Origin: Octopus vulgaris
Taxonomy: Eukaryota
Assembly (NCBI GenBank): GCA_951406725.2
Contig: OX597814.1
Location: 107,074,001 to 107,138,000 of the forward strand
DNA: 64,000 bases
Direction: 5' to 3'
Within the stretch, counting starts at the first letter, position 1. Each line of letters opens with the position of its first letter. Under the pieces are notes generated by a model. The model worked only from the letters and a program-made list of their open reading frames with translations. It made no database searches and was not told the origin of the DNA. Both the position numbers and the translations under genes were made by a program. Below, piece after piece: positions 205 to 56,250 of the stretch.

Positions 205-3200
205 CTACAACAAACAATGAATATATTTCTCTTAATTAATACAATTCAAAGACAGCCCTAACGATCTTAAATACAATAGACAAGAACCAAGTAGGGTCCT
301 ACACACTGATACATTAGGCCATTAGTTTGCAAACAAATACCAGCCCCCTAACCCAACAATACATTTTCTTTCTTTCCTTTACTCGTTTCAGTCTGTGGCC
401 ATGCTGGGGCACCGCCTTAAAGGATTTTAGCTGAATGAATCAAACCCAGTTCTCAATTTCTTTTCTTAAGGTTCTTATTCTTTTGGTCTCCTGTGTAAAA
501 CCACTTGGCAACCAGTGTTGGTGTGTTTATGTCCCTTTAAGTTAGCAGTTGATAGAATAAGTACCAGGATGTAAACAAAAAATTAATAAAGGGGTTAATT
601 TGATTGACCAAAATCCTTCAAAGTGGTGCCCCAGCATGGTCATGGTCTAATGGCTGAAACAGTTAAGTATTTCGTTTTGGGATTTGGTTTGCAAGATTCT
701 TTACATGAGTTCGTGTGTTGAAGCATATACTGTTGTGTCTGGGGAGAGTCATTTTCTTTTTGTGCCTTATATAACACACTCACCGGTAAAATTTCCACTT
801 TTTTTTCTTATTTTTATTTTCCTAAAATTTTCATTGTGTCTTGCAACCTTTTCAATGGAGTCAAAATTATTGAAAAGTTTGCAAGATGCAACGAAAATTT
901 TAGGAAAATAAAAATAAGACAAAAGTGGAAATTTTACCGAGGAGTGTGTTACACTATAAAGCACGAAAAGAAAATTACTCTCCCCAGACACAAAACAAAA
1001 AAGAGAGCTCAGACATGAAAACAAAACTCACCGATTCGTCTGCTGGGTTGATAGTGTTGTAAGTGACACGATCGGAAGAATCAACAAACTCATTGTCGAT
1101 GAAACACTGATGAGGAAAGGTGATGTCCATATTGTTAACATGCAGTTTCACCTGGTGATGAACAAAAACATTTTTACCATTAAATAATTCCTTAAAAATA
1201 CAACAAAATTTCTTGAAGGAACAAACAAAATTTCTTAAAGGAACAAACAAATGTTGACTCCTCCTCATCATCATCAAAGAACACATTCTTTAGTGTTTTG
1301 GATCAGTTCAAGTAATGCCAGCATGCAAAGAAACCATTTTAGCAATGGTGGTGAACATTATGGTAACTGCAATGTAAAATGGTAAATATTGTTGGCTCCA
1401 GATCACTTACAGCATCAAATTCAAAAGGTTCTTCATCTGTGATTCCACGACTACGTAATATAATGTAATTGGACAGTTCTGCAAATGTGGTATTCATGTA
1501 GATGTGTTCATTCTCTAAAGCAACACCACCACATTTCTCTTTGATTTCTTCAACCAATCTAAAAAGTAACAACAACAATAAAGAAATATATTCCACAAAA
1601 ACAAATAAAGAAGGAAATAACACTTTTATTTATCTTCTGAATAAAGGAGTGTATGGAGATGTGTGTGTGTGTGTGTGTGTGTATTTTGAAAGGAAAAGAA
1701 TCAAAGTATGTATATGAATACACATACATGTAGGTACTTATGCAATATGTATAAGCACGTAATCTAATAGATATCCTGTGTATATGTGTATGTACAAAGA
1801 ATTAAATTGAAGAATTTATTAAAAATTACGGAGATGTACTTGCATAGCAGGTGACCTGATCTGAGATCGTGTCCTCGAACGAAAACAATTGCAGCGTGGA
1901 AGGTGTTTATAAGCCATTTAAGAAACACACAAAATCCGTTAGATTCACTTCAACATTTAAATTTAATTTGTCAAAATATTTTCGTTGCTTTGAGACAGCA
2001 ACCTGTTCACTGACAAAACTCTGTGCTGCACAGAGTTTTGTCAGTGAACAGGTCACAGTCTCAAAGCAACGAAAATATTTTGACAAATTAAATTTAAATA
2101 TTAAAAATTAACTAAGCTAAAACTAGAATAACTGACTATGAATCAAGTGTTATGTAGTTCCTTATGTATATAAATGGTCTGGTTCTGGTAGATTCATTGG
2201 TCTGGCAAGGAAGCACTAACTGAAGACCCTTTAAGCCATTGAATTGCTCGTCTTATGAATGTCTGAGGGGAGAAGGTGGTCCGATGACAAGAAACAATAA
2301 TATTCAGGTGAAATCTGTCAGAAGGTATTGAGTGCACCTCAAGAATTATAAGCTATGAAGCAAGGCACAAGAAGCCAGTGCCATTTTGAATGAGATCTCG
2401 CCAGTAGCCATTGCCATGTCTGAGAAAAGAACGAGATCTTGCCTGCAACCATTTGCCATGCACGAGACGACAACGAGATTCTCGCCAGCAACCAGTATTT
2501 AAGCAAGAAACCAATGATTTTCTCTCTCTCATTCCTTCCCATGCTTATGATGAGAAACACTGCAAAGCCAGCAACTCACAGCAGACTCTTGTCCCGTTTC
2601 TAACTCCACATGCTTATCTCCAGAGGAAACGAACCTCACATGTATAGAGTTAAGACACACCATGCACTGCCATAAAGATGGTCACTGAGAGCAAACCACA
2701 TGAACGAGAACTCTGTAAATAAATAGCTATTGGATTGTACTCCGCTTGTGAACTTCTTCTTCATGTTCCAGATTCTTGAAACTACAAAAATAATTCTAAT
2801 GGGAGAAGGAGATACTCCACAGGTATCATAAACCTTCCGTTCCATTGTAGCTATATTCTCTATTTTACTAACACCCTTGGAAAAGCACAAGGGCCACAAC
2901 ATTACTAGGGCTGCCTCCTTGTTGATGTACAAGTCTGATTATGAATGGTTAACTAATTAGAGAAATTAGGTTGCGTGGTAAGAAGCTTCCTTCCCAACCA
3001 CATGATTCCAGGTTCAGTCCCACTGCATGGCATCTTGGGCAAATATCTTCTACCATAGCGTTGAGCTGACCAAAGCCTTGTGAGTGGATTTGGTAGATGG
3101 AAACTGAAAGAAGCTTGTTATGTGTGTGTTTGTCATTGTCATCCTTAGTGGTTTGGCAAATAGAGACTTATAGAATAGGTACTGGATATGAAAGAAAAGA

Positions 3201-6200
3201 AAGTAGTGGAGGGGGGTCGATTCATGTGACTAAAGTTTTTCAAGGTGGTGCCCCAGCATGGTCGTAGTCTAATGACTGAAGCGAAATAAAATATAAAAAA
3301 ATAATTGTAGATCAGACTGGAGCCTGGTGCAGCCTCCTGGCTTCCCAGACCCCAGTCGAACCATCCAACCCATGCCAGCATGGAAAACGGACGTTAAACG
3401 ATGATGATGATGATGAATTGATGAAATGAGATAAAGGAATGTTCCAAGGATTATTTACCTCACAACATCCATGGAACCGGCTCCAGCTTTGAAGAAGTCT
3501 GTTGTATCTTCGATTTCTATATTTAATATAGCTTTCCAAATTTCCTGGAAAATAAAATTAAAAAAATAAAATAAAAACAAAAGTGTTTTCAGATCAAAAA
3601 TGTTTAAAATGAATGCGTTTGGCAGGGTGGGGGTGAGAAAGAAGGCAAAAGAAAGAGGGTTAGGGTGGGGTGGGGGATTTGGTGGTCGTGGTGATGGTAG
3701 TAGTGGTAGTAGCAATATCAGCAGCAGGAGTGGTGGTGGTGGTAGAAAAGGTAGAGAGAGAATACTGTGTAAGTCTAAGCTAGAGAGTAGTAGTAGTAGG
3801 AAGAGGAGGAGTCGCAGTAGGAGGAGTAGGAGTAGAAGTGGTGGTGGTGGTAAATGAGAGAGCGAGAGAATCTGTATGCCAGAGGTTGTATTGTAGTGGT
3901 CACTGAATCTTTTTGGTGGTCATTATAGTAAGCAGAAGGGATAGAAGAGAAGACGGCATCGTTTAGTGGTCCAGCGGTGTGGTTGCAGATCGGTGAGCGA
4001 GTCTTAGATGAGGTCATTGTAGCAACAATAAAAGAGTTAGAAAAAGAGAGAAGAGACAGTGGTGCTATCTGTGGGCCAGAGGTTGGATTGTTTTGGTGAG
4101 TCTTTACTAATCCTCTGGATGATTCTGTTTTAGATACAGTCCAAAATGGTTCGAGGAAATTTCACTGTAGGAAAGTTTTTGCCATAGGAAAATTCACCAG
4201 AAATCTCATCATCATCATCATCGTTTAACGTCTGCTTTCCATGCTAGCATGGGTTGGACGATTTGACTGAGGGCTGGTGAACCAGATGGCTGCACCAGAC
4301 TCCAATCAGATCTGGCAGAGTTTCTACAGCTGGATGCCCTTCCTAACGCCAACCACTCCGAGAGTGTAGTGGGTGCTTTTATGTGCCACCGGCATGGGGG
4401 ACACTCAGGCGGTATTGGCAATGACCTTGGTCGAATCTTTTTACACATGCCACCAACACAGGTGCCAGTAAGGCGATGCTGGTAACGATCACACTCGAAT
4501 GGTGTCTTTTACATGCCACCATAAAAGACACCATTTCACTGTAAGAAATTTCACCACTAGAAATTTTGCTGTAGGAAAATCTTTGCCTGCATCTGTAATG
4601 CTCTTCTTTATTGCAAGAAATATGGTGACAAAACCTTGAGTTGATCCTTTGTTGGATCACATGGAGAAGTCTTCAAGAATGTTTACCGAATCTCTTAATT
4701 TAGAGAAGGGTGAGAGGGCAGAGGTGGTGGTGGGGTATTTGTTACTTTACCTTGAGGTTTGACTCCATAGAAACTTCTTCTGCTGTCAGTTCTAATTTCT
4801 CTGCTGAATCGTCAACTTTACCATATTTGGAAGCTTTGATCATCTTGCCACTGGCCAGTTGCAGCTGGGAGACATTCACCTGGAAAAGAAGCAGGGTTTA
4901 GAAATGGTAGTAATGTTTGCAGAAGGGTCTACTAAAACAGTGGTTCTCAACTGGGGTCCATATTACATTTTGTGGGATCTGTGCAAGAAAATTGGTAAAT
5001 TGGGGATCTACAATTAATATTTTAAGGGTCGATAAAAAATTTTGATTTAGATGTATTTGTTGCAAGAAAACAAAAAAAAAAAAGTTTCTTTCTGTAATGT
5101 TTTACGTAGTCCAACCTCTGCAAAGGAAATGTATGATCAACAAAATAGGAATTTTGAAAGAAGAATCTATAAAACGGTTAGCAGGGGTGGGGGACGGGGG
5201 GGGGGGTCACTAAAATTAAATAGTAATCAAAGGGGTCCTTAGATAAAACAAATGGTTGAGAACCATTGGTCTAGAGGAATAATATGAACAAATAAAAGAG
5301 AAAACATTCTGTTAGGACAAGTGTGAAAATACGGCTGACATGAAAACCAAATGTTGAGGTTGGTTCCAATATTCTTAGTGTAATAAACCAAGAAATATTA
5401 ATTAACTAGCTGAGGAACCCGGTAATAAATTACCATTAATATGATGTCTGTTTATAGCCTTGAAACATTTTTCATCAAATTTTGACATTTTTCAAAAATT
5501 TTAAATCTATATTTGACAAAAAAATAGCAGAGTCTGGTAGCGAATCCGTGTTGTCGTCATTTTTGTGCATGTGCGTAAAATGGTGAAATTTTACACTTTG
5601 GGGCAGATTTTGTCAAACTGATGTCATGACAGATGGTGCACAAAATGCCTAAATTTTCCTTAAGAAATAAAATGGTCCTACTTAAGCAAAACCTGAAATG
5701 CTGGGGAATTAAAACAACAAATTGAAATAATAAGTTTTAGCAAATCAAAACAATTTGCATTGAAATGAAAAATTAGCAAATGCTAATGAGATTACCATTA
5801 ATAAGCTGTCTGTTTATACCCATGAAACATTTTTCGTCAAATTTCATCATTTTTCGTTAAATTGATGTCACGATGGCCAGTGTGAAAAATGCCAAAATTT
5901 TACGATTAATGAAAGATTGATGCTGATTAAATATCGATTTTTAAAAAATTCCAAGTGCATAAGTGACCGCATGGGCATAAGCCCCACACACATGTCAAGT
6001 TTCATCAAAGTCTGTTAGATAGTCTTGGAGGAGTTAAGGTAACAAATCCACAAACACACAAACTTGCCATTTATTATTACAGATTGTTACACAAGATGAA
6101 GAAAAAGACTAATTAGTTTAATAATAAATTCTGTTCGCAAATACCAAGAGGAATAAATTTGTAAATTGGTAAAGACCGAACAAATCTTAAATTTTGTTAC

Positions 6201-7405
6201 AAATTTATCTCCAGGAATATTCCAAAATATAAACTTGCTTACCATTTTATTATCATTTCCGAAAAGAATCATTCCATTTTTATGTACAATGGCTGGCTTG
6301 GAACATCCTTCAATGGCAACTTCAGTTCCTCGTGGCACTAACCGATTCCATAATTTTGAACCACTGAAAGTAACTTGCTGTAAATAAAGGGCATATATTT
6401 ATATATACATGATCATTATATATATATATATATAAGTTCAGCAAAATTTCGATTCAGATGAATATGGTACTTAAGTTAAAGGCACCAGAATTTTGTATGG
6501 TATTATCCATATAAATCAAATGGGGTGATTATAATCAAAATAAGCAACAAGGATATCCAAGGTAGTGTTGTACAATTGTTTCATGCTACTTCATTTTATT
6601 AAACACTGTCCATTTAATTAAAAAATTTTATATGTGGCTGAAGATTGCTCGACATTTTAAAACTGATGTAATACTTACAGTGTTTAATAAAATGAAGTAG
6701 CATGAAACAGTTGTACTACACTACCTTGGATATCCTTGTTGCTTATTTTGATTATATATATATATATAATTTAAAGTAAACAGAAAATGGAGAAATATTG
6801 ATCAACAACAACTGACTTACATCAATTATTATTTTTTTAATTCAATACAAATAGCTTGCATATGGGATGCAGTTTATTTGTATTGAATTAGAAAGTAACA
6901 GTTGATGTAAGTCAATTGTTGCTGATCAATATTTCTCCATTTTCTGTTTACTTTAAATCTGATTCCTGATAAACTCATGTTTATCTTTGTCTTCACCTGT
7001 AATCTATGAACATAATATGCTTGCATATGTATGTCCAGGGTTAACATAGTTAATTATACCAGTAGCATAACAGATACTTTACTTTTATCCCTTAAACGGT
7101 TATTCCAACCTCTAACTCTACTAACCTTATATATATATATAAAAATCTAAATAGAGGTTAAAATAGCCACCTTAAGGGATGGAAAATATTTAATGAATTA
7201 CTAGTTTGTTACCTATTATTTTGTTGTGAATAGTAATATTCCTAAAATAATAGGCTTAAGTATAAAACTTTGTTAAAAAAATATTCAAATTAAAATCCAG
7301 AAAATGGAGTAGCAGCAGTAATATAATTTATTAACATGTTGAATTTTTGCAGTTAATAAATTATATTAACTCTATTTCTCCATTTTCTGGATTTTAATTT
7401 GTATA

Positions 7406-7460
<55 letters not shown>

Positions 7461-13400: not shown

Positions 13401-16400
13401 AGCATTTAAGTTAATGATGACAAAAAATGATGCTGACAACATTTAAATTGATGATAATGAAGTTGAGATAGAGGACAATGTAATCTTGACTGAAGATGCC
13501 AATTTCAGGGCTGACAATGACAAATTGGAGGTAGGACAAATCTGCAGGGGAACTACAGTATACAAGTCAGGACATTACCTAATGCTAAATGTGCAGTGGC
13601 TGCCTTTATTACATATATGGAAATAACCATGAATTTTCACAATGTCTTCCAAATTATATACTTAAGATTGTGAAAGAAACCCTGTGTATGTGTATGTACT
13701 TCAACATTGTTGATCACATCACATCTAATATACAACAATATCCCAACGCATCTCACCCCCACCTATTACTGGGAATGATTAAATGGCCTAAAATTAAACA
13801 AACCAGGTCATAAAAGACTATCTAAGCAAAACCTCTCAGCTACTCAATGGAACATAGATTAACATAGCTGCAGCATTGTACAGATCAGGGGTTGGCAATA
13901 GATAGCCAATCTATTATTTCTTTATTGCCCACAAGGGGCTAAACATAGAGGGGACAAACAAAGACAGACAAACGGATCAAGTCGATTATATCGACCCCAG
14001 TGTGTAACTAGTACTTATTTAATCGACCCTGAAAGGATGAAAGGCAAAGTTGACCTCGGCAGAATTTCGACTTTGCCTTTCATCCTTTCGGGGTCGATTA
14101 AATAAGTACCAGTTACACACTGGGGTCGATGTAATCGACTTTATCTATTGCCAATCGACTGTGGCTCATAAGTGGGCCCCTGAAGTGTTCTGTGTTGGTC
14201 TCAGACTGTCTCTAAAAATGTTTCAAATTTGCCACAGTCCATTGGCAACAGATGAGCTATCTATGGCCAAGCCCTGATCTGTACAATACTACAGCTATTT
14301 GCAGGGCTTAACTCTGTCTCATGACCTCTATTTGCAGTCAGCTGGATTGGACCTTTGACCGTTAAATAAAATATCTTTATTACAGTTACAATGGCATGCA
14401 AGTGATCAAGTGACTCCCTCATCCAGTGAAGACTGGCCAGCTGTAGCTTTCTCACAGGCTGCAAGAGTTAGTAAAATCTGTAACGCATCAGTTTCCATAG
14501 TGTTCAGTAGATAAGAGAGAAAACAATACAAAACCAGCTCAGAACACCGCACCACATGGCAATATCACACCAAACACACATATGCACACACACACACAGC
14601 CACATTTATCCATACATTCACACACACACACACAGCCATGCACACACAGAGCCCTACTCTACTCACACATCAACACACTGCCAGCTTTAATCAGGTCTTA
14701 TCACAGACAAAAGCCATTTCTACCTGGAATAACCTTTACAACATTCTTTTGTGAAAACAAAACAACCCAGCACCATTCTTAAGACAAGAATCCAGTGAGA
14801 AGTTAATGGGGGAAGAGGGTCCCACAGTTTGAAGGGCCCAGTGTTAATCTATGTCTGCAGCTTGCTGCTAAGAACGAACAGAGACACTCTGTTAATTATG
14901 ATGATCCAATCAACGTGACAGCTCACTCTGTGAAATTAATGTACAAGTGGCTGAGCGCTCCACAGACATGTGTGCCCTTAATGTAGTTCTCATGGGGATT
15001 CAGCATGACACAGAATGTGACATGGCCGGCCCTTTTGAAATACAGGTAAAACTCATTTTTGCCAGCTGAGTGGAGTGGAGCAATGTGAAATAAAGTGTCT
15101 TGCTCAAGGACACACTACACCACCAGGAATTGAACTCGTGGCCTTATAATCATGAGTCAAATACCCTAACACACTAAGCCATGCACCTTCATAAATAAAA
15201 TCCTGAGTAAATGCTAAGTCTCACAATCTCAGACAATCCTTCGCGGTGAACCCCTACTCTGCCCCCCACACACACACGCACATATCTCCTCTATTGCAAG
15301 ACACCTATTCCCATCCTGCAATCAAATTCCCATCCGAGTTCGACTTTGCTTTTCATCCTTTCGGGGTTGATAAATCAAGTACCAGTTGAATACTAGGATC
15401 CATCTAATCGACAGGCCGCCCCACTCTCCCCAAAAATTTCGGGCTTTGTGCCTAGAATAGAAAAGAATATTTTAACCTCTCAACGCCTGGCACAAAGTCG
15501 ACTCCTCGTCTTTACTACAGTCCCACTCAGTTAAAGTGTCTTGGTCAGGCAAGTTACTTGGCAACGTCACCAGTGCCGGTGGTGGCACAAATAAGCACCC
15601 AGTGCACTCTGTGGTATGGTTGACATTTAGGAAGAACACTCGGCCAGAGGAACCATGCCAAAGTAGACAGTGTAGCTTGGCCCAGTCTTCTGGCTCACCA
15701 AGTTCAAATTCCGCTGAGGTCGACCATTAATGTCAAGTTTGAATACTTTCGGCGTGCGGGAAATCACACGAAAAGGTCCTTTATAAGGAGAAATAAGAGG
15801 TCATTTGACAGAATCATCACGAACAAAAACATGTGTCCAAGAATCAAGATCTGATGGCACATTAGAAGGAGAATTTTGGTGTCGGGGACCCATAGGAGGA
15901 AGGGCAGAAAAATATCTGCGTAGTCGAGCAACATAAGACTCTAAATTAAGAGACTGTGACTTGTCTGGCACCAACATCGTACCAGGCAATGCCAGTGTGG
16001 TACCATACAAGAGCTCAGCAGAAGAAAAACCAAGGTCTGCTTTAATCGCAGTCCGACATCCAAGCAGGACGATAGGAAGAAATTCAGTCCACGACTGGAT
16101 TCGGCAAGGCACGCAACGCGGCCTTAAGTTGCCTGTGGAAACGCTCCACCATCCCATTTGAAGCGGGATGGTAACTAGTGGTGCGTACATGATGCATCCC
16201 CAGGATTCGTGATAACTCACAAAATAAAACAGCTTCGAATTGTCGACCACGATCTGTGGTTAAACTGGACGGTACACCGAACCTAAAAATCCAGTTAGAC
16301 ATGAAAACTTTCGCAACAGTTTCAGCAGAAATGTCTGCTATAGGAATAGCTTTCGGCCAACGTGAGAAACGATCGATACAAGTTAAAATATATGAGAAAC

Positions 16401-19400: not shown

Positions 19401-21357
19401 TTAGCCAAGATGATGTGAGGCTGATCAGGCTGTTATTTCTAGTAGGCAGAGCAACCACACTGTAGTTCTTTTATTATCTTATAAAAAAATTTCAGGTGAA
19501 GGAGGTCGAGTACTCCAAGGTAAACTTAGACCAGATAATATGGTTTTCACGTGGCACTTGCTCAATTAACAGTACACCTTCATATTTTTATTACAAAGAA
19601 AGATAAACACACCCACCCGATCACGCACACACACATACAGGGTTTAGATAATTATTCTTGATAAAATCTGATTAATTATTCAACCTGTTTACGTAAGATG
19701 TTTATTAGTCCATAGCTTCAAGCCTGAACAACTACCAACACCTTCCCCCCACACACACACACATACACTCTTGTCTTTGTACTACTTCCATAATTCTGTC
19801 CCACAATTCTTTATATTCTACAGTTCTATATTTAAGAGAGGAGGAATTATGTACATTATTTACATTTGACAGATATTCGTCCTCATCTTGTTTGTTGTTA
19901 ACACAACATTTCGGCTGATATACCTTCCAGCCTTCTTCAGGTGTCTTGGGAAAATTTCCAACCTGGGTTCTCATTCCTAAGGTTTTTTCGATGTTATTAT
20001 TATTAAGATTATATAGGACTGAGGTAACTCCTCCAGAAGTTATAGAGAATTGTTAACTCTCTTCTATTTATTTCTCTATAACATCTGGATGAGTTACCTC
20101 AGTCCCATCATCATCATCATCGTTTAGCATCCGCTTTCCATGCTAGCATGGGTTGGACGGTTCAACTGGGGTCTGGGAAGCCAGAAAGCTGCACCAGGCC
20201 CAGTCTGATCTGGCAATGTTTCTACGGCTGGATGCCCTTCCTAACGCCAAGTCCTATATAATCTTTAAAAAAAATGAAGTAGACTGACATGCAATTTTTG
20301 AACCTGTGGAAGGCACGCTAGATGCCGAAATATCGTTCAACCAATTTCACATGATAACTATGGCACTCTTCTATTTATTTCTTTATTATTATTATTATTA
20401 TCATTTAGGTCACTGCCTGGAATTGAACTCGGAATCTTGGGGTAAACCACTACACCATATTCTCTTTAAACCTTCTTTGAGACCAATCCTGGCTCTGTGA
20501 TACAAACTTCCTTATTGGAATCATAAAACCAAAGGCAATCATCATCATCATTTAGGGTCCACTTTCCATTCTGGCATGGTTTGACTGGAACTGATAAACT
20601 GGAGAACTGCACCAAGCTCCATTTTGGTTTGGTTATTATGGGCTGGATGCCCTTCCTAATGCCAACCACTCTACAGAGTGTACCTGGTGCCTTTTATGTG
20701 CTACTGGCACAGGTGCCTTTAATGCGTTTGATAAATTAAAACCTTGCATCAAACTTTCAGGTGTTGTAGTTTTCTTGTTAGGGGTGGGTGGAACACACAG
20801 GTCAGGGGGGGGAGGTAGTGGATAGCAGTGATACAGTGGCATGGGGCCAAGAGAGCAGGATTGGGTAAGCATAATGCATGAAGTGGAAACGTGAGGAAGA
20901 GATGTAGGTCGGTTTGGTGTGGTAGAGAGTGTGAGAAGCTTTCTTTGTAAAGTGTAGGTGGGACATTCAGTGCTTCTAGAACTAAGTTTCACTGATGTGG
21001 GTGAGTTGGGTCAGTCTTGTCACATTCTGTGCCATGCTGAATCTCTTTCAGAACTATGTTAAGGGCACACATGTCCATGGAGTACTCAGCCACTTGCACA
21101 GTAATTTCACAAGAAATTGCCAGTTTTATAAAATTGTTAGATTTAACCCCCCCCCACACACACACACTTATAATAAAAATGATGGCAGTGACTTCACTGT
21201 TGTTATTGTGTGCAGATGGTACCCATGGGTAATTCCCACCACCACCACCACCACCATGACCGTTAAGAACAACAAAAGGTTATTTCTACTTTTGCTGTTA
21301 AGTGGTTAATGTCAGGAACGCAGCTAAACCACTTGCGACAATAAATCAACCACAGAC

Positions 21358-21401: not shown

Positions 21402-24377
21402 ACACACACACACACGTATGGAGAAACGAATGTAAAACGTGGCACATGGAGAAATGAATGTAGAATGTGGCACAGCAGCTGTAACAGCTACAGTCAACCC
21501 CTCCCACCACGCCCACCCCTCAGCAGTTTGTATTTGCATGTTTATGATTCTGCCAGAGAAATGTTTGAAAGAGAAAGAGAGAGAATGAGTGTGGTGTTAT
21601 ATTTCAATGTTTATGACTGGGCATGTACTACTTGTAGAAACCATTGAGGCAGGCTGGAAATATTTATTATCACAAAAGATAAATCTTATCACTGACATAG
21701 CAAACCACTTTAACTTGATTAATACAGTCACAGGGTGTAAACAAGGGGAGGGGCTAAGCAACACACACACACACACACACACTGCTATTCTCTCTCTCTT
21801 TCGCTCTCTCTCTCTCTCTCTGACTTCAGTTGAGGAGGGTTTGTTTGCTTAAGTTGCATGTTTTAATAAAGACCTTTTTATATAACAATTACTTATAAAC
21901 TTGATGCAAGCACAGCTGTGTGGTAAGAAGCTTACTTCCCAACCACATGGTTCTGGGTTCAGTCCCACTGTGATGCACCTTGGGCAAGTGTTTCCTACTA
22001 TAACCACAGGCTGACCAAAGCCTTGTGGATGGATTTTGTAGACAGAAACTGAAAAGTCTGTCATATATGCGTGTGTCTGAGTAAATATGTATAGAGAAGA
22101 GTAGAGAACAACAAAAACCTTTCTATTTTGTTTTCTATGACCTCGAAAAGGCCTTTGATTCTGTCCCAAGGAAGGTCTTCCGATGCTTCGGCTGCCCCAA
22201 TCAGTTCATTTCCGTTGTACAGAGATTACATGACAGTATGACTGGAACCATCTTCCATCAAAACCGTCTGAAGATTTCCTCATCTCTGGAGGATTAAAAC
22301 AAGGATGCGTTTTGGCCCTGACGCTCTTCTCCCTGAACCTTTCAGCAATGTTTCATTAACTGCTCTTGGACAATCCAGGGGTCAACATTAGGTACCAATA
22401 TGATGGCGGAGGATGTTTCAACTTTGCCAGATTGAAGTCATGAAGACTGACCAGGAAGTAAAAAAGAAATCACTAAACTTCAGTATGCTGATGACAACGC
22501 AGTGCTCTGCCACTCCAGTGGACAGCTTCAAGAATCGGTGAATAACTTCACAAATGCTTACACTTGGTGTGGCCAAAAAGTCAACATCAAAAAGACAAAA
22601 TTCCTGGCACAACCAGTTCTAACTCAAGAAACTCCTGACCTCAACATTACCATTTTAGAGATGCCACTGGAGAAAGTCAACCACTTTTCATACTTAGGAA
22701 GTTTGCTTTTGAACAAGTGCACATCATAAAAGGATGTGGAGAACTGATTAAGAGTGGCTCACACCGCATTTGGTGGGCTCACGAAAAGGGTCTTTAAGAA
22801 CAAAGGTCTGAACCACAAAACAAAATTGTGATCTCCACTCTATGATTATGAAACCTGAACTCTTTACCAAAGCAGCACCAAATAACTAGGGTAATTTTCG
22901 CTCTATTATGAATATTGAATGGAACGACTATGTGACTGATGTCTCCATTTTGGAGAGAACTAAAAGCAGCAGCATCGAGGCTACCACCCTGAAACATCGT
23001 CTGAGATTGGTGGGCCATGTAGGAAAAATGAAAGAAACCAGGCTGACTCATCAAGTTTTATATGGTGAACTTTCCACCAGAAGAAGACTCCAGAGCCATT
23101 CCCTCCCAAAGCCTGGGACATTGAGGCTCAGGACAGGCCCGTCTGGCATCATTCCATCTCCACTGTGACAGACCGTTTTGAAGCTGAACGAGAGAGGAAA
23201 GAGGAAGAGAAATGACAAGGAAAGAAAAATGGAGGCTGCAACAACCAAAGCCTCCACTATGGGTCCCTTGTGAACTTTGCAATAGACGCTTCCATGCAAG
23301 AATCAGCCTCTTTAGTCATCAGAGGGATAGACACAAACAAATGGGAAGAAGCGGCCAAGAAGAAACCAAATAAATTATCGGACACAAGATAAAGTGCCGA
23401 TTATGATGATGTGTGTGTGTGTGCACGCGAGTGTGTGTCCCCCCCCACCACACCTACCACTTGACAACTGGTGTTGGTGTGTTTATGACCCTGTATGGTG
23501 TTAGGAAGGACACCACCCAACCACAGAAACTACCCGAAATGGAAGAAATGAGAGCGGCATGGCTCTCTGACATGTCAAAGAGACCAATAACTCTAAGAAC
23601 TGATTTGGCCTATGATGATTACTCTAACCCATGCCTACATAGAAAATAGATATAAATGATCATGATGGCAATGACAATACATACGTACACACACACACAC
23701 ACACACACATATATATGTATGTATGTATGTATATATAGGAAAATGTGTTGTTGAAAATCTGCATGGAAACACGCCACCCTCTTTTGTTATATATAATATA
23801 AATAGATATATATATATATATGCATATATACATACATATATGCACATACTTACATATATATGGATATACAGGTACAGAATGTCACAAAACATAAACAACA
23901 TGAAATACGAAAATGACATGGATTACAAAATACGAAAACAACATGGAAAATGAAGGCAAACCTGGGTATGAGAACAACGAGAGAAACAAATAGAAAGCAA
24001 GACAAGTAACAACATAAAGAATGACCCTTGATATATATATATTATATTATTATATGATTGAACACCAGGCATCCATTTCCAAGTAAGTTTATATATAATT
24101 GAAACTTATAGGAAAGCAAAAGATGAAGACAGGTGTAGGAACAACAAGCAGGTGTATTAGTTTGATGCTTAGGAAAAATGGAAAAGTCTTTTACGTTTCG
24201 AGCCTAAGCTCTTCAGCAGAAAAGAATAAGAGAAAGTAAACAGAGAGAGAATGAAAAAAACTTGTAGATTTCAGCAGTCCAACATGGCCAATATCTATAT
24301 ATATATACTAGCATTATGACCCGTCTTTGCCGGGCATGTATATATGTGTATATATATGTGTACATATTACATGTACA

Positions 24378-42913: not shown

Positions 42914-42955
<42 letters not shown>

Positions 42956-45034
42956 GACGGGCTTCTTTTCAGTTTCCGTCTACCAAATCCACTCACAAGG
43001 CATTGGTCGGCCCGAGGCTATAGTAGAAGACACTTGCCCAAGGTGCCGCGCAGTGGGACTGAACCCAGAACCATGTGGTTGGTAAACAAGCTACCTACCA
43101 CACAGCCACTCCTGCGCCTTATTAATTGTTTTTTGTTTTTTTTTCGGAAAGAAATTACACAGATTTGAATTTAATAATTACGTATATAACATGCATTCTT
43201 TTATTCTTTTACTTGTTTCAGGCGTTTGGCTGCGGCCATGCTGGAGCACCGCCTTTAGTCGAGCAAATCGACCCCAGGACTTATTCTTTGTAAGCCTAGT
43301 ACTTATTCTATCGGTCTCTTGCTGAAACGCTAGCTCACGGGGACGTAAACACACCAGCATCGGTTGTCAAGCGATGTTGGGGGGGAGACAAATACAGACA
43401 CACACACACACACACACACACATGTATGTACGACAGGCTTCTTTCCGTCTACCAAATCCACTACCAAATCCACTCACGAGGCTTTAGTCGGCCCGAAGCT
43501 ATAGTTGAAGACACTTGTCTAAGGTGCCACGCTGTGGGACTGAATCCGGAACTATGTGGTTGGTAAGCAAGCTACTTACCACACAGCCACTCCTGCGCCT
43601 ATGTACATGAAAGATTTATAATACAAAACCACATTAAAATACAAATACAAAATCGAAGAAAACACAAGCATGGGCGAAGAAAGAAAAATGGAAAAGAAAG
43701 AAAAAAACCTTCAATCAACATCAAGTGCCTCAATGGGTCGCAACTACAAGGTTCAGCGGAATCTACTGAAATAAGTGAACATGATCGCGGCATTACCACA
43801 GACGATGGCGGGGTTTAAGGCGTTGGAACAGGGAAACAACCTCATGGGCATCAACAGACACCTCGGTAAGGCGAGCCACGCACGATAACAAGAACTTCGT
43901 TGTCAGCGGCCCAGCCCCTACACACCACAAGCCGGAAGAAATAGTTCACTTCCAGGTCCTGATAGTTAAGGATTTTGTTCCGTTCGGCCGCAGAGGCCGT
44001 GACCCTCCCATTTACCACAGATTACAGGATGTGAGAACGAACAAACACATGCATACGTACTTAGATGCGTATACACATACATCATAAATGCATACGCACA
44101 TACATGCATATATAGACAGATAGATAGAATACGTATATATCCATATACATGTTTGTAAATACGTATGCACACACACACACACACACACACACTCACATCC
44201 TTTAAGTTCATTTATGTGAAACGTTTTTGAGTGCGCTCATAAAAGGTCCTATGCTATCTATTCCGGTTAGAGGTTAGAGAAAAATTATGGGAAGGTTATT
44301 AGCCTGGTGCCACCATAGCACAAAATGATTCCAGAAATAACAAGAACTTTTGAATGGAAATTAATAAATCTTTTAATGCATTGCTACATAAGATAAGATA
44401 AGACTTCCCCTGTTTCATTATCAATGGTCTGCTAGTGGGCGACCTCCTTAATTGTCAGCTAACATTTTGTTTTAAGTTTTCCTTTACCAAACCTCATGAT
44501 ATTGCTTCTAATAAAATCTTGATTTTTATGATTATACCAACTATGATTTCTGTCTGCTCCCTCAGCCTAACAGATACTGCCCTTTGATCTCTCAGCCTTA
44601 GATATACAAGGATTTGATAAACTAGTCTATAAAAAAAATGATCGCATAAAAACAAAACAAAAAAATCAGTGACAGGCAGCGTCTGTAACAATGTATATCT
44701 TCTTGATAACTTAGTAACTTCTATGCTGGAGTAAGAACAGCATATTCTTTGTCTATCTCCTTAATTTCTTACAGATTTTAGGTATAATTATGCTAATGTG
44801 TCCATCTGTTCTAATTTAATTAATTCTATGTCTTTGTGCAGCTGAGGATTGCTCTGCCTTTTAAATTAATGTAATGATTGCATTGTTCAATTAAATGGAG
44901 TTGCATGAAACGATCGTACTGGATATCCTTGTTGCTTATTTTGATTTTAATCACCATACTTTGAAATTGTATGGATAATACCGTATATATATGCGTCTAG
45001 TTTTTCAAAAACTAGCATTGAATTTTTGGACACA

Positions 45035-46290
45035 AGTTTTCTGGAGGCAGAATAGTGACAAAGTTATTTTGCAAGCCCACGTCATCCCACATTTATCTCC
45101 GCCACCGATTCGATCATCTACATCATATAATTCGGTCAAATCCGAAATCTCAATTTTCAAAGATAAAACGAATTCGTACCGACATAAGGGATTACTGGAA
45201 ACATGCACATGCTTTTGTACACCATTATGTCAAACGCGGTTATAGTGATTCATGATTAAAGGAAATAGCAAATGACAAAGAAAATCAAACTTTTACGCAC
45301 AATTTTAGCAAATAAAGTACAATATGTGACAGAATTCCTTCAGTGATTAACTGGCACCGAAATTTCGCTGGCATTTCAAAAGTATTACATGAAAGTTATC
45401 AGCATGTTGCGGAAAAATATCCTCGTTTCAAACAAATATTTCCTCGGTCACCTATTGTAGACTTTAGATGAAATAAAAAATGTAAGAGAACTACTAACCT
45501 CTACTTCTGACTCCAAGAAAACTAACATTGGAGTATCTGCATGCTGTACCTTGAAAAGCAGCCGCAAGATAGGTAAGCCCTGGTCATTGTGCAACAACAT
45601 GAGTGAGGTGAATTCCATCAGGAATAATAACAGAAATGTTATGATTTATACAAAAGGTGGGACATGTAGAGATTCCCACTTGGTGTATGCAGCAGATTGC
45701 ACGAAACACTACTTGATTTATGTTGGTTGTACAACAGAACAATTAAACAAAGATTGAATATGACGTCAGGCACAATAGCAGTAGTTCGACAGAACTTGCC
45801 GAACATTTTGCTTCAAACAGCTACAATTTTGGGGAAAAAAACTTGAAAGTGCATATTCTCAGAAAATATTCTGAATCTGCTACACTTTCAGTACTCAAAA
45901 CGCACGAGGAGAAATATATTTGCGTGTTATTAACACCACGTCCTGGAGGAATGAATAAAATGACAGAATTTCATCATATTTACACAAAACTATTTGAGTA
46001 AATATTCCTCTTTTTCCTTTTCTTTTTCTTTTCTTTTTTCTTTTCTTTTCTTCTTTTTCTCTTTCTTTCTTTCTTTCTTTTTGCCAGTTGTAAACTTGAA
46101 AATTGAAGGCTGATGATGTCATTCCATCGACGTGAGAATGCTGGTTACCTTCGTTCATATTTTGGATTTGAATTTCTATAATTTTGAACTTTTATCACTT
46201 TTCATTTTGAACTCGACAAAAACAGACAAGCTGTTGAAATTTCGTTCAACCAATAAAATATCTATAGCAATCGCTCTTTGTATTGTCTAT
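45035..46290 (+). mobile_element. Penelope-like element remnant (post-RT linker, GIY-YIG endonuclease, pseudo-LTR)
   Basis: SQFSKIKRI..HYVKRGY and TCRDSHLVYAADC..LIYVGCT..L. A degenerate hammerhead GAAGG-CTGATGA...CCTTC lies at about 46105-46152. Confidence 0.75.
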
Positions 46291-46555: not shown

Positions 46556-47970
46556 TTTTCCTTCTTTCTTCAAAATTTCTTCCGTTTCTCGCCGGGTATT
46601 TTCCGTACACCTAGGGCAGAGAAGCTCATTGCATGCATTCCCAGATTACACACGCAAATTCACAGGTAAAATATGTATTTAAAAAATTAATGAATAAATA
46701 AATTCATGAATGGATGTTGGTTTCACAGCGATAATGCTCTTCTCAGTACATGAGCCGTTCCAGTTAACACGATTTTTTGCACTTCCTGTAGGGATGGTAA
46801 GTCTGGTATCATTTTCAAATAGGTTTCAGTGCCTTTTTTTAATCATTCCTAGAGATCCTACAATCACTGGTACTGTAGTCGCCTTAAGATGCCACATTTT
46901 TTCAATTTCTATTAGCAAGTCTTTATATTTACTGATCTTGTCAAATTCTTTCGCCGCTATATTGTGATCGCAAGGAATACTCATGTCAATTAATAAACAC
47001 ATCTTTTTTGTCTGATCTTTTATAATAATATCCGGTTTATTAGCTTTTATAGTTTTGTCGGTATGTACGGGGAAGTCCCATAGAATCGACACATTTTCTC
47101 CTTCAATCACAGCTTCAGGATAGTGTTTATACCATTCGTCAGCAGTTTTGATTTTATAATGCCGACATATTGTCCAGTGTAAATACTGGCCGACTCTGTA
47201 ATGTCTTGCTTTATATTCTACAGGTGCTAAGATTCTACACACTGAGATTAGATGGTCTATTGTTTCAATCTCATCGTTACAGAATCGGCATTTTGGGTCA
47301 GCTCCATTTTTTATCACATTGGCTTGGTAGTTCCGGGTTAATAAGCTTTGGTCTTGAGCAGCTAAATATGAAACCTTCACTCTCCGCTTTTAGCCCTGAG
47401 CTTCGTAACCATTGGTGCGTGTGTTTCTGGTCGACATCAGCTTGTTTGCTACGGGCTACATAATTGCCATCTGCTAGCTAATTTTTCATGTGCTTTTATC
47501 TTTGCAATTAATTTTATTTTATTTACACCAGCAGTTGGCGCATTTCCTTCGACCTGATCAATCTGGTGGGTATCTAAGAGATCAGTAGCGAATTTTTTGC
47601 TCTCTTTCAGAATAGAGTGAATTGTTTTCGGTCTTTCGTGTTTTTCAACAAGTTTTAGCATCCAATCGTTGGTTGCTTCAAGGTATTTGGCCAGTCCGAT
47701 TGTGGTGGTTTTGTACGTAAGTTCAAGCTGGATCAAACCTCGTCCTCCTTGAGCTCTGGGAAGGTAAAGACGATCCACGTCTGCCTTTGGATGGTTCATC
47801 TTATTACAAGTCAGTAGCTTCAAGGTATTTGGCCAGTCCGATTGTGGTGGTTTTGTACGTAAGTTCAAGCTGGATCGAACCTCGTCCTCCCTGAGCTCTG
47901 GGAAGGTAAAGACGATCCACGTCTGCCTTTGGATGGTTCATCTTATTACAAGTCAGTAGCTTGCGGATTT
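46556..47970 (-). mobile_element. 5'-truncated R4/Dong-like RLE non-LTR retrotransposon
   Basis: HPKADVDRLYLPR..GGRGL, AAQDQSL, CRFC..ETIDHL..C, KPDII, LIDMSIP and QKIVLTGTAHVLRRAL*. The 3' UTR ends in AATAATAATGATGAT. Confidence 0.9.
47679..47962. repeat. 142-bp tandem duplication inside the LINE
   Basis: CAAGGTATTTGGCC...CAAGTCAGTAGCTT at 47679-47820 and 47821-47962, nearly identical. Confidence 0.95.
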
Positions 47971-51069: not shown

Positions 51070-51358
51070 TGTGGTGTTAGTGGTGTTATGGGCTGTGATG
51101 GAGCTATGTGGTGTTGGTGGTGGGGATTGCAGATGAGGTGGACGGAAGTAAAGCTTGCAGGGGCCGGTGAGATAGCCAGAGGGCACGCGTGGGCAGGAAG
51201 CACGTGTGGCCAGTTCGTGCAGAGACGGCTGAGAGACAAGACGTGTTTAATTCGTGAGAGTGACCGCTGATTTCGCCGAGGTCAACAGGTAAGGCCTTTT
51301 GTATTTCTTTCTCCCGTTTGCTTCTTTTTCTGTTGTCCTTTTCCTCCATCACACTACA
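51070..51358. mobile_element. Solo LTR (289 bp) inserted in a SINE
   Basis: TGTGGTG...CACTACA termini with 5-bp TSD CATAC (51065-51069, 51359-51363); SINE sequence resumes on both sides. Confidence 0.8.
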
Positions 51359-52661: not shown

Positions 52662-52886
52662 AAAGTGATAGTATGTTGTTTAACTTAAAATGACAGTCCC
52701 ATAAAAGGGAAGAATGCTACTGTTATTTAGCCCTGTTGGACACATTTCCTGTGACCTTATGTTTTCAAAGGACACAAGAAATGTATCAAGTCCAACAGGA
52801 AACGATATTTCCTAGGGCTAAATAACAGTAGCATTCTTCTCTTTCATGGGACTGTCATATTAAGTTAAATAACATACCATCACTTT
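52662..52886. repeat. Nested fold-back (outer arms about 70 bp plus inner hairpin)
   Basis: AAAGTGATAGTATGTT...GCTACTGTTATTTAGCCCT / AGGGCTAAATAACAGTAGC...AACATACCATCACTTT; inner CTGTTGGAC..GTCCAACAG. Confidence 0.88.
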
Positions 52887-53184
52887 ATTGTGCTGCTACT
52901 GCATAAATCTCTCTCCGAGATTTAGAAATGTATTAATTCTATTTTCAAAGAGAATGTTCCAGTTAAATATGTTCTGTGACATGTGTCTGTTATTATAGAA
53001 ATAATAAAGGATAAAGAAGATGTTTATGCAGAATGGTGTCTGCAGATAATTATACAGAATGATGTGTGTCATTGTTCAGTTTTATTTCAAGATTTCTTGT
53101 CAACAGAGAAAGAGTCAGTTTCTAACCTAGATTCAAGGCTCCATCATTGGAATTTCAACATCAACAACAGGGTAGTTTTTGCTT

Positions 53185-53550
53185 GTATGTACGTATGTAT
53201 GTATGTATGTATGTATGTATGTATGTATGTATGCAGGCATGTATGAATGTATGAATGTATGTATGTAGGCATGTATGAATGTATGTATGTATGTATGTAT
53301 GTATGCATGCATGCATGCATGTATGTATGTATGTATGTATGTATGTATGTTTGTATGTATGTATGTATGTATGTTTGTATGTATGTATGTTTGTATGTAT
53401 GTATGTTTGTCTGTATGTATGTATGTATGTATGCATGTATGCATGTATGTATGTATGCATGCATGCATGCATGTATATATGCATGTATGTATGTATGTAA
53501 ACATGTATGTATGTTTGTTGTATGCATGCACGTATGTATGTATGTGTGTA
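53185..53550. repeat. (TATG)n microsatellite
   Basis: Direct reading of the sequence. Confidence 0.97.
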
Positions 53551-56215
53551 TATTTTGTTTTATGTGTGTATTCTCTTGCATATAGTTATATACCTAAACA
53601 TGTTCACATATATTTAAATGATAAACTTCTGGAAAGTTTTACAGATTCTTACAGTTCCAGTGATGGATTGGATCTGTAGTCTTTAAATTAGCTTTCTTCT
53701 TTTTGGTATTGTGAAGCTTTAAAAACAATAACTGCTAAAATCGAACTGCACTCTTCAAAACTTGCACTATGAATAAATACAAGGTAAAATTACTACTTGC
53801 TTTAATATCAACTTAATGCAGGTAGTTTATCCCACCCCCAGCCGAATTTTATTTCATGCAATTGAAAAACTCGCATTATTTATGGGATGACCCAGTATTT
53901 ATTGCTCATTTCTGTCTCCTCTTTAAACCTTTCCTGGTGATTTGTCGTCCACTTGAGCACTGTATACTATTAGATTATGGTTATATTACATTATATTACC
54001 ACTCAAGTACAGAAAGCATTGTAGTCAATTAACCACTTCCCCCACAAACTATCAGGCCTTCTGCCTATAACAGAAAGAATTCGGAGGTGACAAACAGACA
54101 AAATCATTAGCATGTCAGACAAAAGGTTAAGTGGCAGTTTCCAAATTCTTTACATTCTGAGTTCAAATACCACCAAGATCGTCTTTGGCTTTCATCCTTA
54201 CAGGGTTGATATAATAAAGTGTCAATGCAATCGACTCACCCTCTTCCCTGGTGTTATTGGCCTTTTGTCAAAATTTGAACCTATTGCATCATATTTTAGA
54301 AGTGAAAGTGTGTGGCCTTGTGGTTGGGAGTGTTGTACTCTCGGTCTGGAGATCGGGGGTTTCAATTCTCAGACTGGCTGTGCGTTGTTTTCTTGAGCAA
54401 AACACTTTATTTCACATTGACCCAGTCCACTCAGCCGTAAATGGTTAACTCTGCGATGGACTAACCTTGCAATCAGTGGGGAAGGTTGGCATCATTCGAA
54501 AGCTACAACGATGCGAAGTGCATTGTGATCAGCGATGTATAACAACATCCGATAGTCTGGTCGATACCAATATATATAAAACGTCAATGAAGTTTTTTTT
54601 TTTTTTGAGAGGCGGGGGTTTGTTTACGGCGAATTGGCAGAGTCATTAGAACATGGAACAGAGCGCTTTGCGGCATTTCTTCTGTATCTGGGTTCTGAGT
54701 ACGAATAGAGCGATAGCCTATTTGTGGTAGACTTAGACGGTCTCCCAGTTTAATACCACCATTTAGCAACTTGGACACCTTTAATAGAGTCTACTCTGTT
54801 GCAAGAATTTGGACCAAGTTTCAGGCTTGAAGATATCGGCTTCCTCCTTTCCTTCTACCAGGCGCCTTTTAACGGGCCGTGATAGTGATAAAGGGGAGAA
54901 AATAAAACACAATCTGTTAATTTGCATTATATATTCGTTTGGTTATGATGCTGAGACGAGACAGTCCCCATTAAAAGGTAGAAGAAAGATTAATTTGAAA
55001 ATAAATTAGAATCAACTGTAGAAAGAGAAAAGAATTTTGCTTGCTAACATAAGATAATGGAAACAATATTAAAAGATTGTTTGAAAACTAGAAACGAAAA
55101 AAAATTTTATTTGTCATTCTTCAAAGACCTAATTTAACGACGGTTTAACACGAGTTTTCTCCCTTTAAAGAATTACCCCCCTTACCAAACCCAAAATTAG
55201 AGAAATATTCTTTAGTTAACGTCGTCCTACAAACCTTTCGACTGCAGGTACAAGGCCTGAAATTTTGAGGGAGGGTGGAAGTCGATTAGATCGACCTCAG
55301 TGCTCAACTGATACTTGATTTATCGACCCCAAAAGGATGAAAGGCAAAATCGACCTAGATAGAATTTGAACTCAGAACGTAACGACGGCTGAAATACCTA
55401 TTTCTTTTCTACCCACAAGGGGCTAAACACAGAGGGGATAAATAAGGACAGACAAACGGATTAAGTCGATTATAACTGGTACTTATTTAATCGACCCCGA
55501 AAGGATGAAAGGCAAAGTCGACCCCGGCGGAATTTGAACTCAGAACGTAGCGGCAGACGAAATACTGCTAAGCACTTCACCCGGCGTGCTAACGACTCTG
55601 CCAGCTCGCCGCCTTCACGTAGCCCTACAATGTTGGGGTGTCATGGTTGGAATGCCTTTCATCTTTAATAGCCAACCACATGGAGTTGGAAATGGTAACA
55701 TTTCACGCTTTCTGTGGGTTTAAATATGAGGAAGTCAACTGATTCAGTGGGTCTGAAGGTGGAACACGCTCCCTGCCACCACCCCACCACAATCACCGCC
55801 TCACCCACCTCCGCTGTAGCAGCAGCACCCTCCTCCACCGCCACCGACAAATCTTTTATCTTTTACTTGTTTCAGTCGTTGGACTACGGCCATACTGGGG
55901 CACCGTCTTGAAGAAATTTACTCAAACAAATCAACCCCAGCTCTCGTTTTTTTTTTTTTTTTTTCTTTAAGACTGGTACTTATTCTAGCGGTCTCTTTTG
56001 CAGAACTGCTAAGTTTTGGGGATGTAAACACACCAACTACAGCTGTCAAGTGGCAGCGGAGGACAAACGCAAATACAAAGACAACAACAGCCCCCATATA
56101 TGTGAGTGTGTGTGTGTGTGTGTGTGTGGATATGTGTGTGTGTATGTGACTGCGTGTGTATCGTTGGCGATTTTTTTCCTCTATCTTCCTTTCTTTGGAT
56201 CTTTACTCTTTCTAT

Positions 56216-56250
56216 GTTTCTGACGAAAAGCTCTGCTCGAAACGTTAAAT
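56216..56250 (+). ncRNA. Minimal type-I hammerhead ribozyme motif
   Basis: GTTT-CTGACGA-A-AAGC-TCT-GCTC-GAAA-CG-TT-AAAT; palindromic AACGTT stem III; flanks resemble the 24.2-kb copy. Confidence 0.7.

What the first reader, a model, noticed from the sequence alone, without database searches (positions are those of the whole stretch)
733..56250. Dispersed family of fold-back elements and minimal hammerhead ribozymes (Penelope/retrozyme-like system)
Seen: about 9 long inverted repeats (733, 1952, 6530, 6769, 7286, 13864, 20004, 27503, 52662) and five clear plus weaker type-I hammerhead motifs (19901, 20298, 24187, 27776, 56216; degenerate 46105). One hammerhead is inside a fold-back and two flank another. 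One fold-back arm recurs beside a Penelope GIY-YIG remnant. Known: Penelope pseudo-LTRs carry minimal hammerheads and form inverted structures, and minimal hammerheads can cleave as dimers. Inference: several non-autonomous Penelope-derived families load host introns with dsRNA and ribozyme relics. I cannot tell whether these families are already catalogued.
Basis: partly seen in the sequence, partly recalled or inferred. Interest (0 to 1): 0.7.

Follow-up and report, generated by a model that had tools for sequence, protein, structure and literature searches.

The report
Penelope fold-back ends carrying hammerhead ribozymes
The hairpins and hammerhead-shaped RNA motifs in this window are mostly end pieces of several very common Penelope-type jumping genes, likely laid down back-to-back by these elements' known way of copying; this is ordinary for such elements, although some families carry unusual ribozyme cores and one carries a likely tRNA-type promoter, none of it yet tested at the bench.

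Summary
All nine inverted repeats and the five main hammerhead motifs are real; the 46105 motif is probably not a hammerhead. They are not one system but about ten genome-wide repeat families in a 2.8-Gb animal genome (probably octopus). Fold-backs have Penelope geometry: head-to-head inverted arm, variable junction, one-sided tail, often a microsatellite target. Three hammerhead families lie directly behind RT/GIY-YIG genes, so they are pseudo-LTR fragments; two form tandem retrozyme-like monomers. Intact hammerheads: 15 in 800 kb against 0.7 in shuffles; inverted partners: 10 of 49 hammerhead-family copies against 3 of 145 SINE copies. Only two window copies keep an intact fold, one of them hidden in its hairpin. 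The biology is published (Cervera 2014, Arkhipova 2013, Craig 2021). What adds interest: natural core variants, and a Poseidon-like pseudo-LTR with tRNA-type A/B boxes where 24 of 30 copies begin, pointing to a Pol III-type start. Cleavage, Pol III use and editing are untested.

The parts
668..993 (-). Family 733: tail 668-732 plus fold-back 733-993; U3-A8 minimal hammerhead in both arms (about 820-859 minus, 866-905 plus), helix II damaged in both window arms
   Evidence: U3-A8 core in 50 of 55 arms held; tail on one side in 25 of 25 loci, counted by eye
1826..2105 (-). Family 1952: tail and direct copy on minus strand, fold-back 1949-2105
   Evidence: tail on one side in 17 of 19 loci (1 none, 1 unresolved), by eye
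1967..2017 (-).
   Evidence: G3-C8 in 42 of 45 arms; z -2.5; helix II pair probability 0.00 in context, 1.00 isolated
6434..6756 (.). Family 6530: tail 6434-6529, fold-back 6530-6756, in (TA)n; type I hammerhead with about 60-nt helix II arm at about 6633-6720 (+), first helix II pair mismatched in this subfamily
   Evidence: tail one-sided in 28 of 30 loci (1 both, 1 shortened), by eye
6769..7127 (+). Family 6769: fold-back plus about 170-nt tail ending in (TA)n; Penelope-like geometry, no hammerhead found
   Evidence: tail one-sided in 13 of 14 loci, by eye
7141..7406 (-). Fold-back 7281-7406 with tail to the left; resembles family 6769 at both ends; no hammerhead found
   Evidence: one relative in the 800-kb sample; no genome search made
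13864..14298 (.). Outer 52-nt inverted arms (unassigned, no relatives in held DNA) around a SINE 3' part (13915-14067) with its own inverted duplicate (14067-14145)
19821..20460 (-). Family H19: pseudo-LTR of a Poseidon-like Penelope element; tRNA-like head remnant 20406-20460, (TAA)n tract interrupted by the H20 insertion, hammerhead, 3' tail
19900..19945 (-). Intact minimal type I hammerhead (C3-G8), sense to the host transcript; helix III palindrome carries one CpG-type change
   Evidence: (z -2.1)
20005..20378 (+). Family H20: about 162-nt monomer that also forms tandem arrays; inverted arm 20005-20050 (the 20004 fold-back), SINE inserted at about 20106-20250, hammerhead 20298-20339 with family-fixed A6U core
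   Evidence: exact U6 core in 27 of 39
24110..24262 (-). Family H24: 3' end of a Neptune-like element; hammerhead about 24188-24224, position 6 is not A
   Evidence: (RT-thumb/Zn-finger/GIY-YIG ORF upstream in L267)
27504..28032 (+). Family C27: about 355-nt monomer with canonical type I hammerhead (27775-27823, G12 changed here), inverted arm 27504-27682, 45-nt tail; retrozyme-like
44814..44985 (+). Diverged relative of family 6530 with its own long-helix-II hammerhead (core at 44842); chance neighbour of the element to its right
44993..46290 (+). 5'-truncated, decayed Neptune-like Penelope element (RT thumb, Cys linker, GIY-YIG); U3-A8 hammerhead at about 46207-46249; the 46105 motif is probably not a hammerhead
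52662..52950 (+). Family 52662: fold-back plus tail; longer copies carry a C3-G8 hammerhead upstream of the part kept here
   Evidence: L176, L179, L181; tail one-sided in 17 of 18 loci, by eye
56140..56352 (+). Family H56: 3' end of the Neptune-like lineage in (TA)n; hammerhead 56216-56249, first helix II pair broken in this copy

Best explanation
The fold-backs and hammerhead motifs are 3'-end (pseudo-LTR) fragments of about ten abundant repeat families, three of which lie directly behind Penelope-type RT/GIY-YIG genes, and the rest were likely copied by the same kind of enzyme. Shown: family membership, head-to-head arms with variable junctions, one-sided tails, hammerhead folds in family majorities. 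Inferred mechanism: the Penelope protein nicks an AT-rich or microsatellite site and starts reverse transcription inside the pseudo-LTR RNA at one of two nearby sites; the cDNA stops at the RNA 5' end or earlier, folds back on a short self-complementary stretch and primes an inverted copy that ends short of the other start site, leaving an inverted arm plus a tail. The template was uncleaved RNA, since sequence lies on both sides of the cleavage site. The ribozymes would work, if at all, as dimers through palindromic helix III in tandem transcripts. In host introns they are mostly relics: mutated, single, or hidden in the hairpin. The hairpins likely form double-stranded RNA that is A-to-I edited. 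In family H19 the pseudo-LTR likely starts at a tRNA-type (Pol III) promoter.
For: Geometry: one-sided tails in 25/25, 17/19, 28/30, 13/14, 17/18 loci and copy-specific junctions (counted by eye; loci are top-scoring hits). ORF linkage: H19 follows an RT/GIY-YIG-type ORF end in 28 of 28 correctly oriented loci picked by the ORF alone (RVT_1 in L333; homologues with RT); H24 in L267; the 44993 element in 20 loci. Four of six fold-backs searched without regard to ribozymes (733, 1952, 6530, 52662; not 6769, 7281) hold a hammerhead fold. Enrichment 15 vs 0.7 per 800 kb; 5 of 15 within 150 nt of a fold-back against 6.5% coverage (p 0.002); inverted partner in 10 of 49 vs 3 of 145 SINE copies (p 8e-5), all 10 head-to-head. 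Covariation: helix I pair 4 is G-C/G-U in 44 and C-G in 22 of 74 copies; the 3-8 pair is C-G, U-A or G-C by family; three compensated helix II changes in one 6530 relative (L002). Literature: inverted 5'-truncated copy, tail and (TA)n targets (PMC8557442, passages), palindromic junctions and self-priming (PMC3846280, passages), minimal hammerheads, opposite-strand pairs and U3-A8 (PMC4209133, parts 1-2 of 4), internal RT start and no need for cleavage (PMC11167929, parts 1-2 of 4).
Against: No coding partner was found for 733, 1952, 6530, 6769, 7281, 52662, H20 or C27. No hammerhead in 6769, 7281, 13864. Tails here are 45-190 nt, longer than the 30-40 nt in print. SINEs also fold back (3 of 145; 13975 in this window), so the geometry is not exclusive. 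H56/H24 has an inverted partner in only 1 of 24 sample copies. The helix I covariation is in effect one event between two subfamilies. Rfam found neither hammerhead nor tRNA. Clade names rest on the linker cysteines, not on a tree. RNA reads show no pile-up of starts or ends at the cleavage site or the proposed start (fragmented unstranded libraries, little power).
Confidence: 0.85

Rival explanations
1. The fold-backs are MITE or foldback DNA transposons and the hammerheads are unrelated neighbours.
For: Short, AT-rich, long inverted arms, frequent TA flanks. The 13864 outer repeat is unassigned.
Against: Ends are asymmetric with a tail on one side only, junctions differ copy by copy, many copies have no inverted arm, and hammerheads lie inside the arms.
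Confidence: 0.04
2. They are independent non-autonomous retrozymes or SINEs that spread through their own (circular) RNAs, using Penelope enzymes in trans.
For: H20 forms arrays of about 162-nt monomers (L321) and C27 has tandem units of about 355 nt with a canonical hammerhead, in the size range of animal retrozymes (PMC7229834, passages; bioRxiv 10.64898/2026.07.22.740005, part 1 of 5). H19 has A/B boxes, no run of four T in the one copy counted, and 24 of 30 copies begin at the head.
Against: For H19, 49 solo and 21 ORF-linked copies share the same non-CpG variants at similar frequency (8/18 vs 18/46, 6/20 vs 11/48, 5/18 vs 10/46, 8/20 vs 15/39) and similar divergence (6.9% vs 5.9%); the boxes are not better kept than their flanks. 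No circular joint was tested for H20 or C27. Likely true for H20 and C27 only.
Confidence: 0.3
3. The intronic hammerheads and hairpins are kept by the host to process or regulate this gene's pre-mRNA.
For: Two intact folds lie sense to the host transcript (1967-2017, 19900-19945); H19 RNA is present in host-like transcripts.
Against: Density is close to the genome background, copies diverge like neutral repeats, most cores are damaged, one intact fold is predicted to be sequestered, and single minimal hammerheads did not cleave in vitro (PMC4209133 part 2).
Confidence: 0.04
4. The fold-backs come from general repair or replication snap-back, or from assembly errors, independent of element type.
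For: About 300,000 fold-backs genome-wide by extrapolation; SINE fold-backs exist.
Against: Arms are 70-98% alike (aged), arm starts are fixed per family, the rate is about ten times the SINE rate, and opposite-strand joints occur in independent RNA reads.
Confidence: 0.05

Closest known systems
EN+ Penelope-like elements (Penelope/Poseidon, Neptune) with inverted pLTRs and tails (PMC8557442, PMC3846280, PMC8969392: passages; PMC11167929: parts 1-2 of 4)
   Same: RT plus C-terminal GIY-YIG ORF, hammerhead downstream in the pLTR, inverted 5'-truncated copy head-to-head, tail at either end, AT-rich or microsatellite targets.
   Different: Longer tails (45-190 nt); most families known only as short ends; a tRNA-like head in one pLTR, which I did not find in print.
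Minimal type I hammerheads of metazoan PLEs (Cervera and de la Pena 2014, PMC4209133, parts 1-2 of 4)
   Same: Extra base after A9, short helix I, palindromic helix III, opposite-strand pairs 100-700 bp apart, U3-A8 variant.
   Different: Family-wide G3-C8 core (1952), U6 core (H20 and part of H24), about 60-nt helix II arm (6530). Natural U3-A8 and A6C are in PMC3088659 (passages); natural G3-C8 was not found in one search, but two key papers (Lunse 2017, Arkhipova 2017) were not held.
Non-LTR retrozymes (PMC7229834, passages; bioRxiv 10.64898/2026.07.22.740005, part 1 of 5)
   Same: H20 and C27: non-coding monomers of about 162 and 355 nt with a type I hammerhead, some tandem.
   Different: Mostly dispersed, with Penelope-type inverted arm and tail; circular RNA not tested.
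Schistosoma Sm-alpha/Sj-alpha hammerhead SINE-like repeats (as reviewed in PMC6765202, passages) and TRIMp3 elements Cassandra/Helenus/Ajax (PMC10886601, passages)
   Same: Pol III-type promoter together with a hammerhead (Sm-alpha); small-RNA-derived promoter inside a terminal repeat (TRIMp3).
   Different: Here the head sits in the pseudo-LTR of a coding Penelope-like element, and solo copies are not a separate lineage.

Membership tests
EN+ Penelope-like elements | Single ORF with RT and C-terminal GIY-YIG endonuclease | tested here: met
   For H19, H24/H56 and the 44993 element: (RVT_1 E 5e-10 and 1.6e-5; GIY-YIG E 0.001 and 0.01, below Pfam cut-off)
EN+ Penelope-like elements | Coding partner for families 733, 1952, 6530, 6769, 7281, 52662, H20, C27 | tested here: inconclusive
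   None in the held loci (one search used one PLE query only)
EN+ Penelope-like elements | Inverted 5'-truncated copy, head-to-head, with one-sided tail | tested here: met
   (18 of 30)
EN+ Penelope-like elements | Full pLTR-ORF-pLTR partial tandem | not tested
   No full-length copy fetched
Poseidon versus Neptune clade | Absence or presence of the Zn-finger-like linker; RT phylogeny | tested here: inconclusive
   Linker cysteines present in L267 and the 44993 family, absent in the H19 partner; no tree built
Minimal type I hammerhead | Core boxes, paired 3-8, helices I and II, palindromic helix III | tested here: met
   Family majorities; exceptions U6 (H20, part of H24) and a mismatched first helix II pair (6530)
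Minimal type I hammerhead | Self-cleavage as monomer or dimer | not testable with these tools
   No end pile-up in RNA-seq, low power
Non-LTR retrozyme | Tandem non-coding monomers each with a type I hammerhead | tested here: met
   H20 array in L321, C27 tandem units; not met for the other families
Non-LTR retrozyme | Abundant monomeric and circular RNA | not tested
   Reads were laid only on H19
tRNA-derived SINE (family H19) | A and B boxes at tRNA spacing with 5' ends at the head | tested here: met
   Boxes recognised from recalled consensus; A 23/28, B 20/28; 24 of 30 5' ends within -7..+6
tRNA-derived SINE (family H19) | Recognisable tRNA homology | tested here: inconclusive
   No Rfam tRNA hit; relaxed ARAGORN calls inconsistent; 65-73% likeness to other SINE heads, best E 0.002
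tRNA-derived SINE (family H19) | Independent lineage separate from the coding element | tested here: not met
MITE | Symmetric fixed termini with target-site duplication | tested here: not met

The most novel reading that the evidence does not exclude
A Poseidon-like Penelope element captured a tRNA-type Pol III promoter in its pseudo-LTR and, by starting reverse transcription inside that repeat, shed some 50,000 promoter-plus-ribozyme units, a Penelope counterpart of Cassandra/Helenus. Sister families explored all of the C-G, U-A and G-C core pairs and an A6U core while staying mobile, and the roughly 300,000 fold-backs are a major source of the double-stranded RNA edited in this animal.
Probability: 0.35. 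Interest if true: 0.65.

Novelty: new variant of a known kind. Interest (0 to 1): 0.4.

Why it matters
The core pattern is known. The value lies in material: tens of thousands of short insertions whose junctions, tails and 5' ends map where Penelope reverse transcription starts, stops and folds back, a step still unresolved in print; natural hammerhead core variants (G3-C8, A6U, long helix II) that usual descriptors miss and that can be assayed directly; a possible Pol III-driven pseudo-LTR; and a candidate source of editing substrates in a lineage known for heavy A-to-I editing (recalled).

Tried and rejected
First descriptor demanded a 2-bp helix III and found nothing. Rfam gave only microRNA-hairpin noise and nothing on the head. 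MITE reading rejected. The 44814 arm as part of the GIY-YIG remnant rejected (0 of 19). The 46105 motif rejected on the family majority (per-copy count not made). My early view that 733, 1952, 6530 and 52662 lack hammerheads was wrong: core variants and a long helix II had escaped the descriptor. Non-circularly permuted hammerheads: none at my score threshold in the family majorities or window pieces scanned. H19 as a separate SINE lineage: not supported. In one search two loci (L348, L350) were read in the wrong orientation and are left out of the counts; L346 and L347 are duplicates and L325 is the query. Run search: no RNA holder listed; three added raw RNA runs were laid instead. No DNA run was laid, so editing is unproven. 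The unbiased sample stayed at 800 kb. Papers PMC5785218 and PMC5850863 were not held; supplements were not read and may list these core variants. Dfam and Repbase were not available, so whether the families are catalogued stays open. No earlier finding matched by sequence.


Full report
Setting. The window is G000:C1:107074001-107138000 of a 2.8-Gb genome. A minus-strand gene with a formyl-transferase exon at 12301-12600 and further exon-like frames at 29164-29394, 6087-6398 and 1339-1629 (recalled as ALDH1L-type) spans the left half.

Observation. All nine inverted repeats are present. A census with one method gave 13 fold-backs in the window and 91 in 80 evenly spaced 10-kb stretches, so the window is mildly rich (p 0.035) and the genome holds on the order of 300,000, SINE pairs included. 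Hammerhead descriptors gave 19 hits in 800 kb against 0-3 in shuffles and, with palindromic helix III and 3-8 variants, 15 against 0-2.

Families. Genome searches gave 763 to 3846 first-look candidates for each query (lower bounds, 40 scored each). From the sample I estimate about 50,000 copies of H19 (15 loci), 80,000 of H56/H24 (24), 14,000 of 1952 (4) and 10,000 of 733 (3); small counts, wide error.

Geometry. In 733, 1952, 6530, 6769 and 52662 the inverted arm starts at a family-fixed place, the junction differs from copy to copy, and family sequence runs on beyond the repeat on one side only: 25/25, 17/19, 28/30, 13/14, 17/18 loci (by eye; top-scoring hits, and the 733 query contained the tail). 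6530, 6769 and H56 end in (TA)n, H20 in (TTA)n. This is the inverted copy plus tail described for Penelope-like elements (passages) and not a MITE. In the unbiased sample 10 of 49 hammerhead-family copies have an inverted partner, all head-to-head, against 3 of 145 SINE copies; H56/H24 contributes only 1 of 24.

Hammerheads inside the fold-backs. Family 733 has a U3-A8 core (50 of 55 arms), 1952 a G3-C8 core with 7-bp helix I (42 of 45), 6530 a canonical core with a long helix II arm (28 of 29), and longer 52662 copies a canonical one upstream of the part kept in the window. 6769, 7281 and 13864 showed none. H20 has U at position 6 as the family state (27 of 39 exact); 18 of 74 Neptune-lineage copies also have U6. 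Covariation: helix I pair 4 switches between G-C/G-U (44) and C-G (22) in 74 copies, one event between two subfamilies; one 6530 relative has three compensated helix II changes, and the helix III loop changes from one palindrome to another. No permuted hammerhead was found.

Links to coding elements. The remnant at 44993-46290 belongs to an RT-GIY-YIG family. Its majority lacks the second core box behind 46110; its hammerhead is 100 nt further on, with U3-A8. The 6530-like piece at 44814 is absent from 19 of 19 other copies. H24 follows a GIY-YIG ORF with linker cysteines in L267. H19 follows an ORF without them: in 28 of 28 correctly oriented loci chosen by the ORF alone the head or hammerhead follows (A box 23, B box 20, both hammerhead halves 15; two loci mis-oriented and dropped). 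The 19.8-20.5 kb cluster is a nest: a SINE inside H20 inside the (TAA)n tract of H19.

The tRNA-like head. An exact 33-nt pattern starting at the A box matched 617 places. Of the first 30, 24 have their 5' end within -7..+6 of the tRNA-like start and 6 reach further; about 3 would be expected from the truncation rate further upstream (matches in inverted arms included). A native 5-bp hairpin lies at that start and is the centre of many fold-backs. Rfam and ARAGORN do not confirm a tRNA. Solo and ORF-linked copies share variants and age, so solos are best read as copies of the pseudo-LTR from one source, and the pile-up marks a transcription start or a strong stop. Pol III use is an inference; stalling at the hairpin is the alternative.

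RNA. In three unstranded RNA-seq runs of one study 5618-7782 of about 12 million reads lay on one H19 copy; 87-88% run on into unlike sequence, joints between opposite strands occur, and no start or end piles up. T>C and A>G differences of 5% or more stand at 18-20 and 16-20 places, against 4 and 5 in 145 genomic matches; five T>C sites are 12-29% in RNA and 0-3% in genomic copies. This fits editing, but one T>G site behaves alike, the runs may be of another species, and no matched DNA was laid. Folding predicts that the 1952 hairpin abolishes its hammerhead helix II, whereas the 19940 hammerhead can fold in context.

What is known. Minimal hammerheads in pLTRs, opposite-strand pairs and U3-A8, self-priming palindromes, internal initiation and tails, retrozymes as PLE derivatives, Pol III hammerhead repeats in schistosomes and small-RNA promoters in LTRs are in print. 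My searches returned no paper on octopus hammerheads, on a tRNA promoter in a pLTR or on a natural G3-C8 family; the library is incomplete and two relevant papers were not held. Natural U3-A8 and A6C are reported, G3-C8 as a laboratory variant. Earlier notes of this scan already mention the tRNA head and G3-C8 in this genome; they are not independent support.

Verdict. Real, genome-wide, and in its core already explained by Penelope biology; new variants in ribozyme core and promoter give moderate interest (0.4).

Noticed in passing
window 15801-18500 (-): Decayed LTR-retrotransposon coding region (RT, RNase H, integrase) inside the host intron.
   Followed up: no
window 58500-63500 (+), 46826-47937 (-): LINE-type RT frames, partly long and stacked, with zf-RVT matches.
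   Followed up: no
   Followed up: partly
L198:136, L235:328, L236:942: Another hammerhead family with long helix II and a six-base palindromic helix III.
   Followed up: no
L233:96 and L266:9809: Identical U3-A8 hammerhead in two sample loci, suggesting a young family.
   Followed up: no
L321:900-2300: Array of about eight H20 monomers (period about 162 nt), the best material for a dimer cleavage test.
   Followed up: partly
L085, L089, L098 (C20:52.92 Mb): C27 units repeated at about 1640-nt spacing.
   Followed up: no
L346 and L347, after the H19 head: Two near-identical loci 15 kb apart where the pseudo-LTR breaks into sequence that looks like antisense small-subunit rRNA (recalled, untested); L335 has a short similar insert.
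   Followed up: no
L343, directly after the ORF end: Three telomere-like repeats inserted between ORF end and head.
   Followed up: no
window 9393-9863 and 47675-47962: Minisatellites of 31 nt (15 copies) and 142 nt (2 copies).
   Followed up: no
window 40001-44000: Raised CpG count upstream of the host gene's first coding exon, possibly a promoter region.
   Followed up: no
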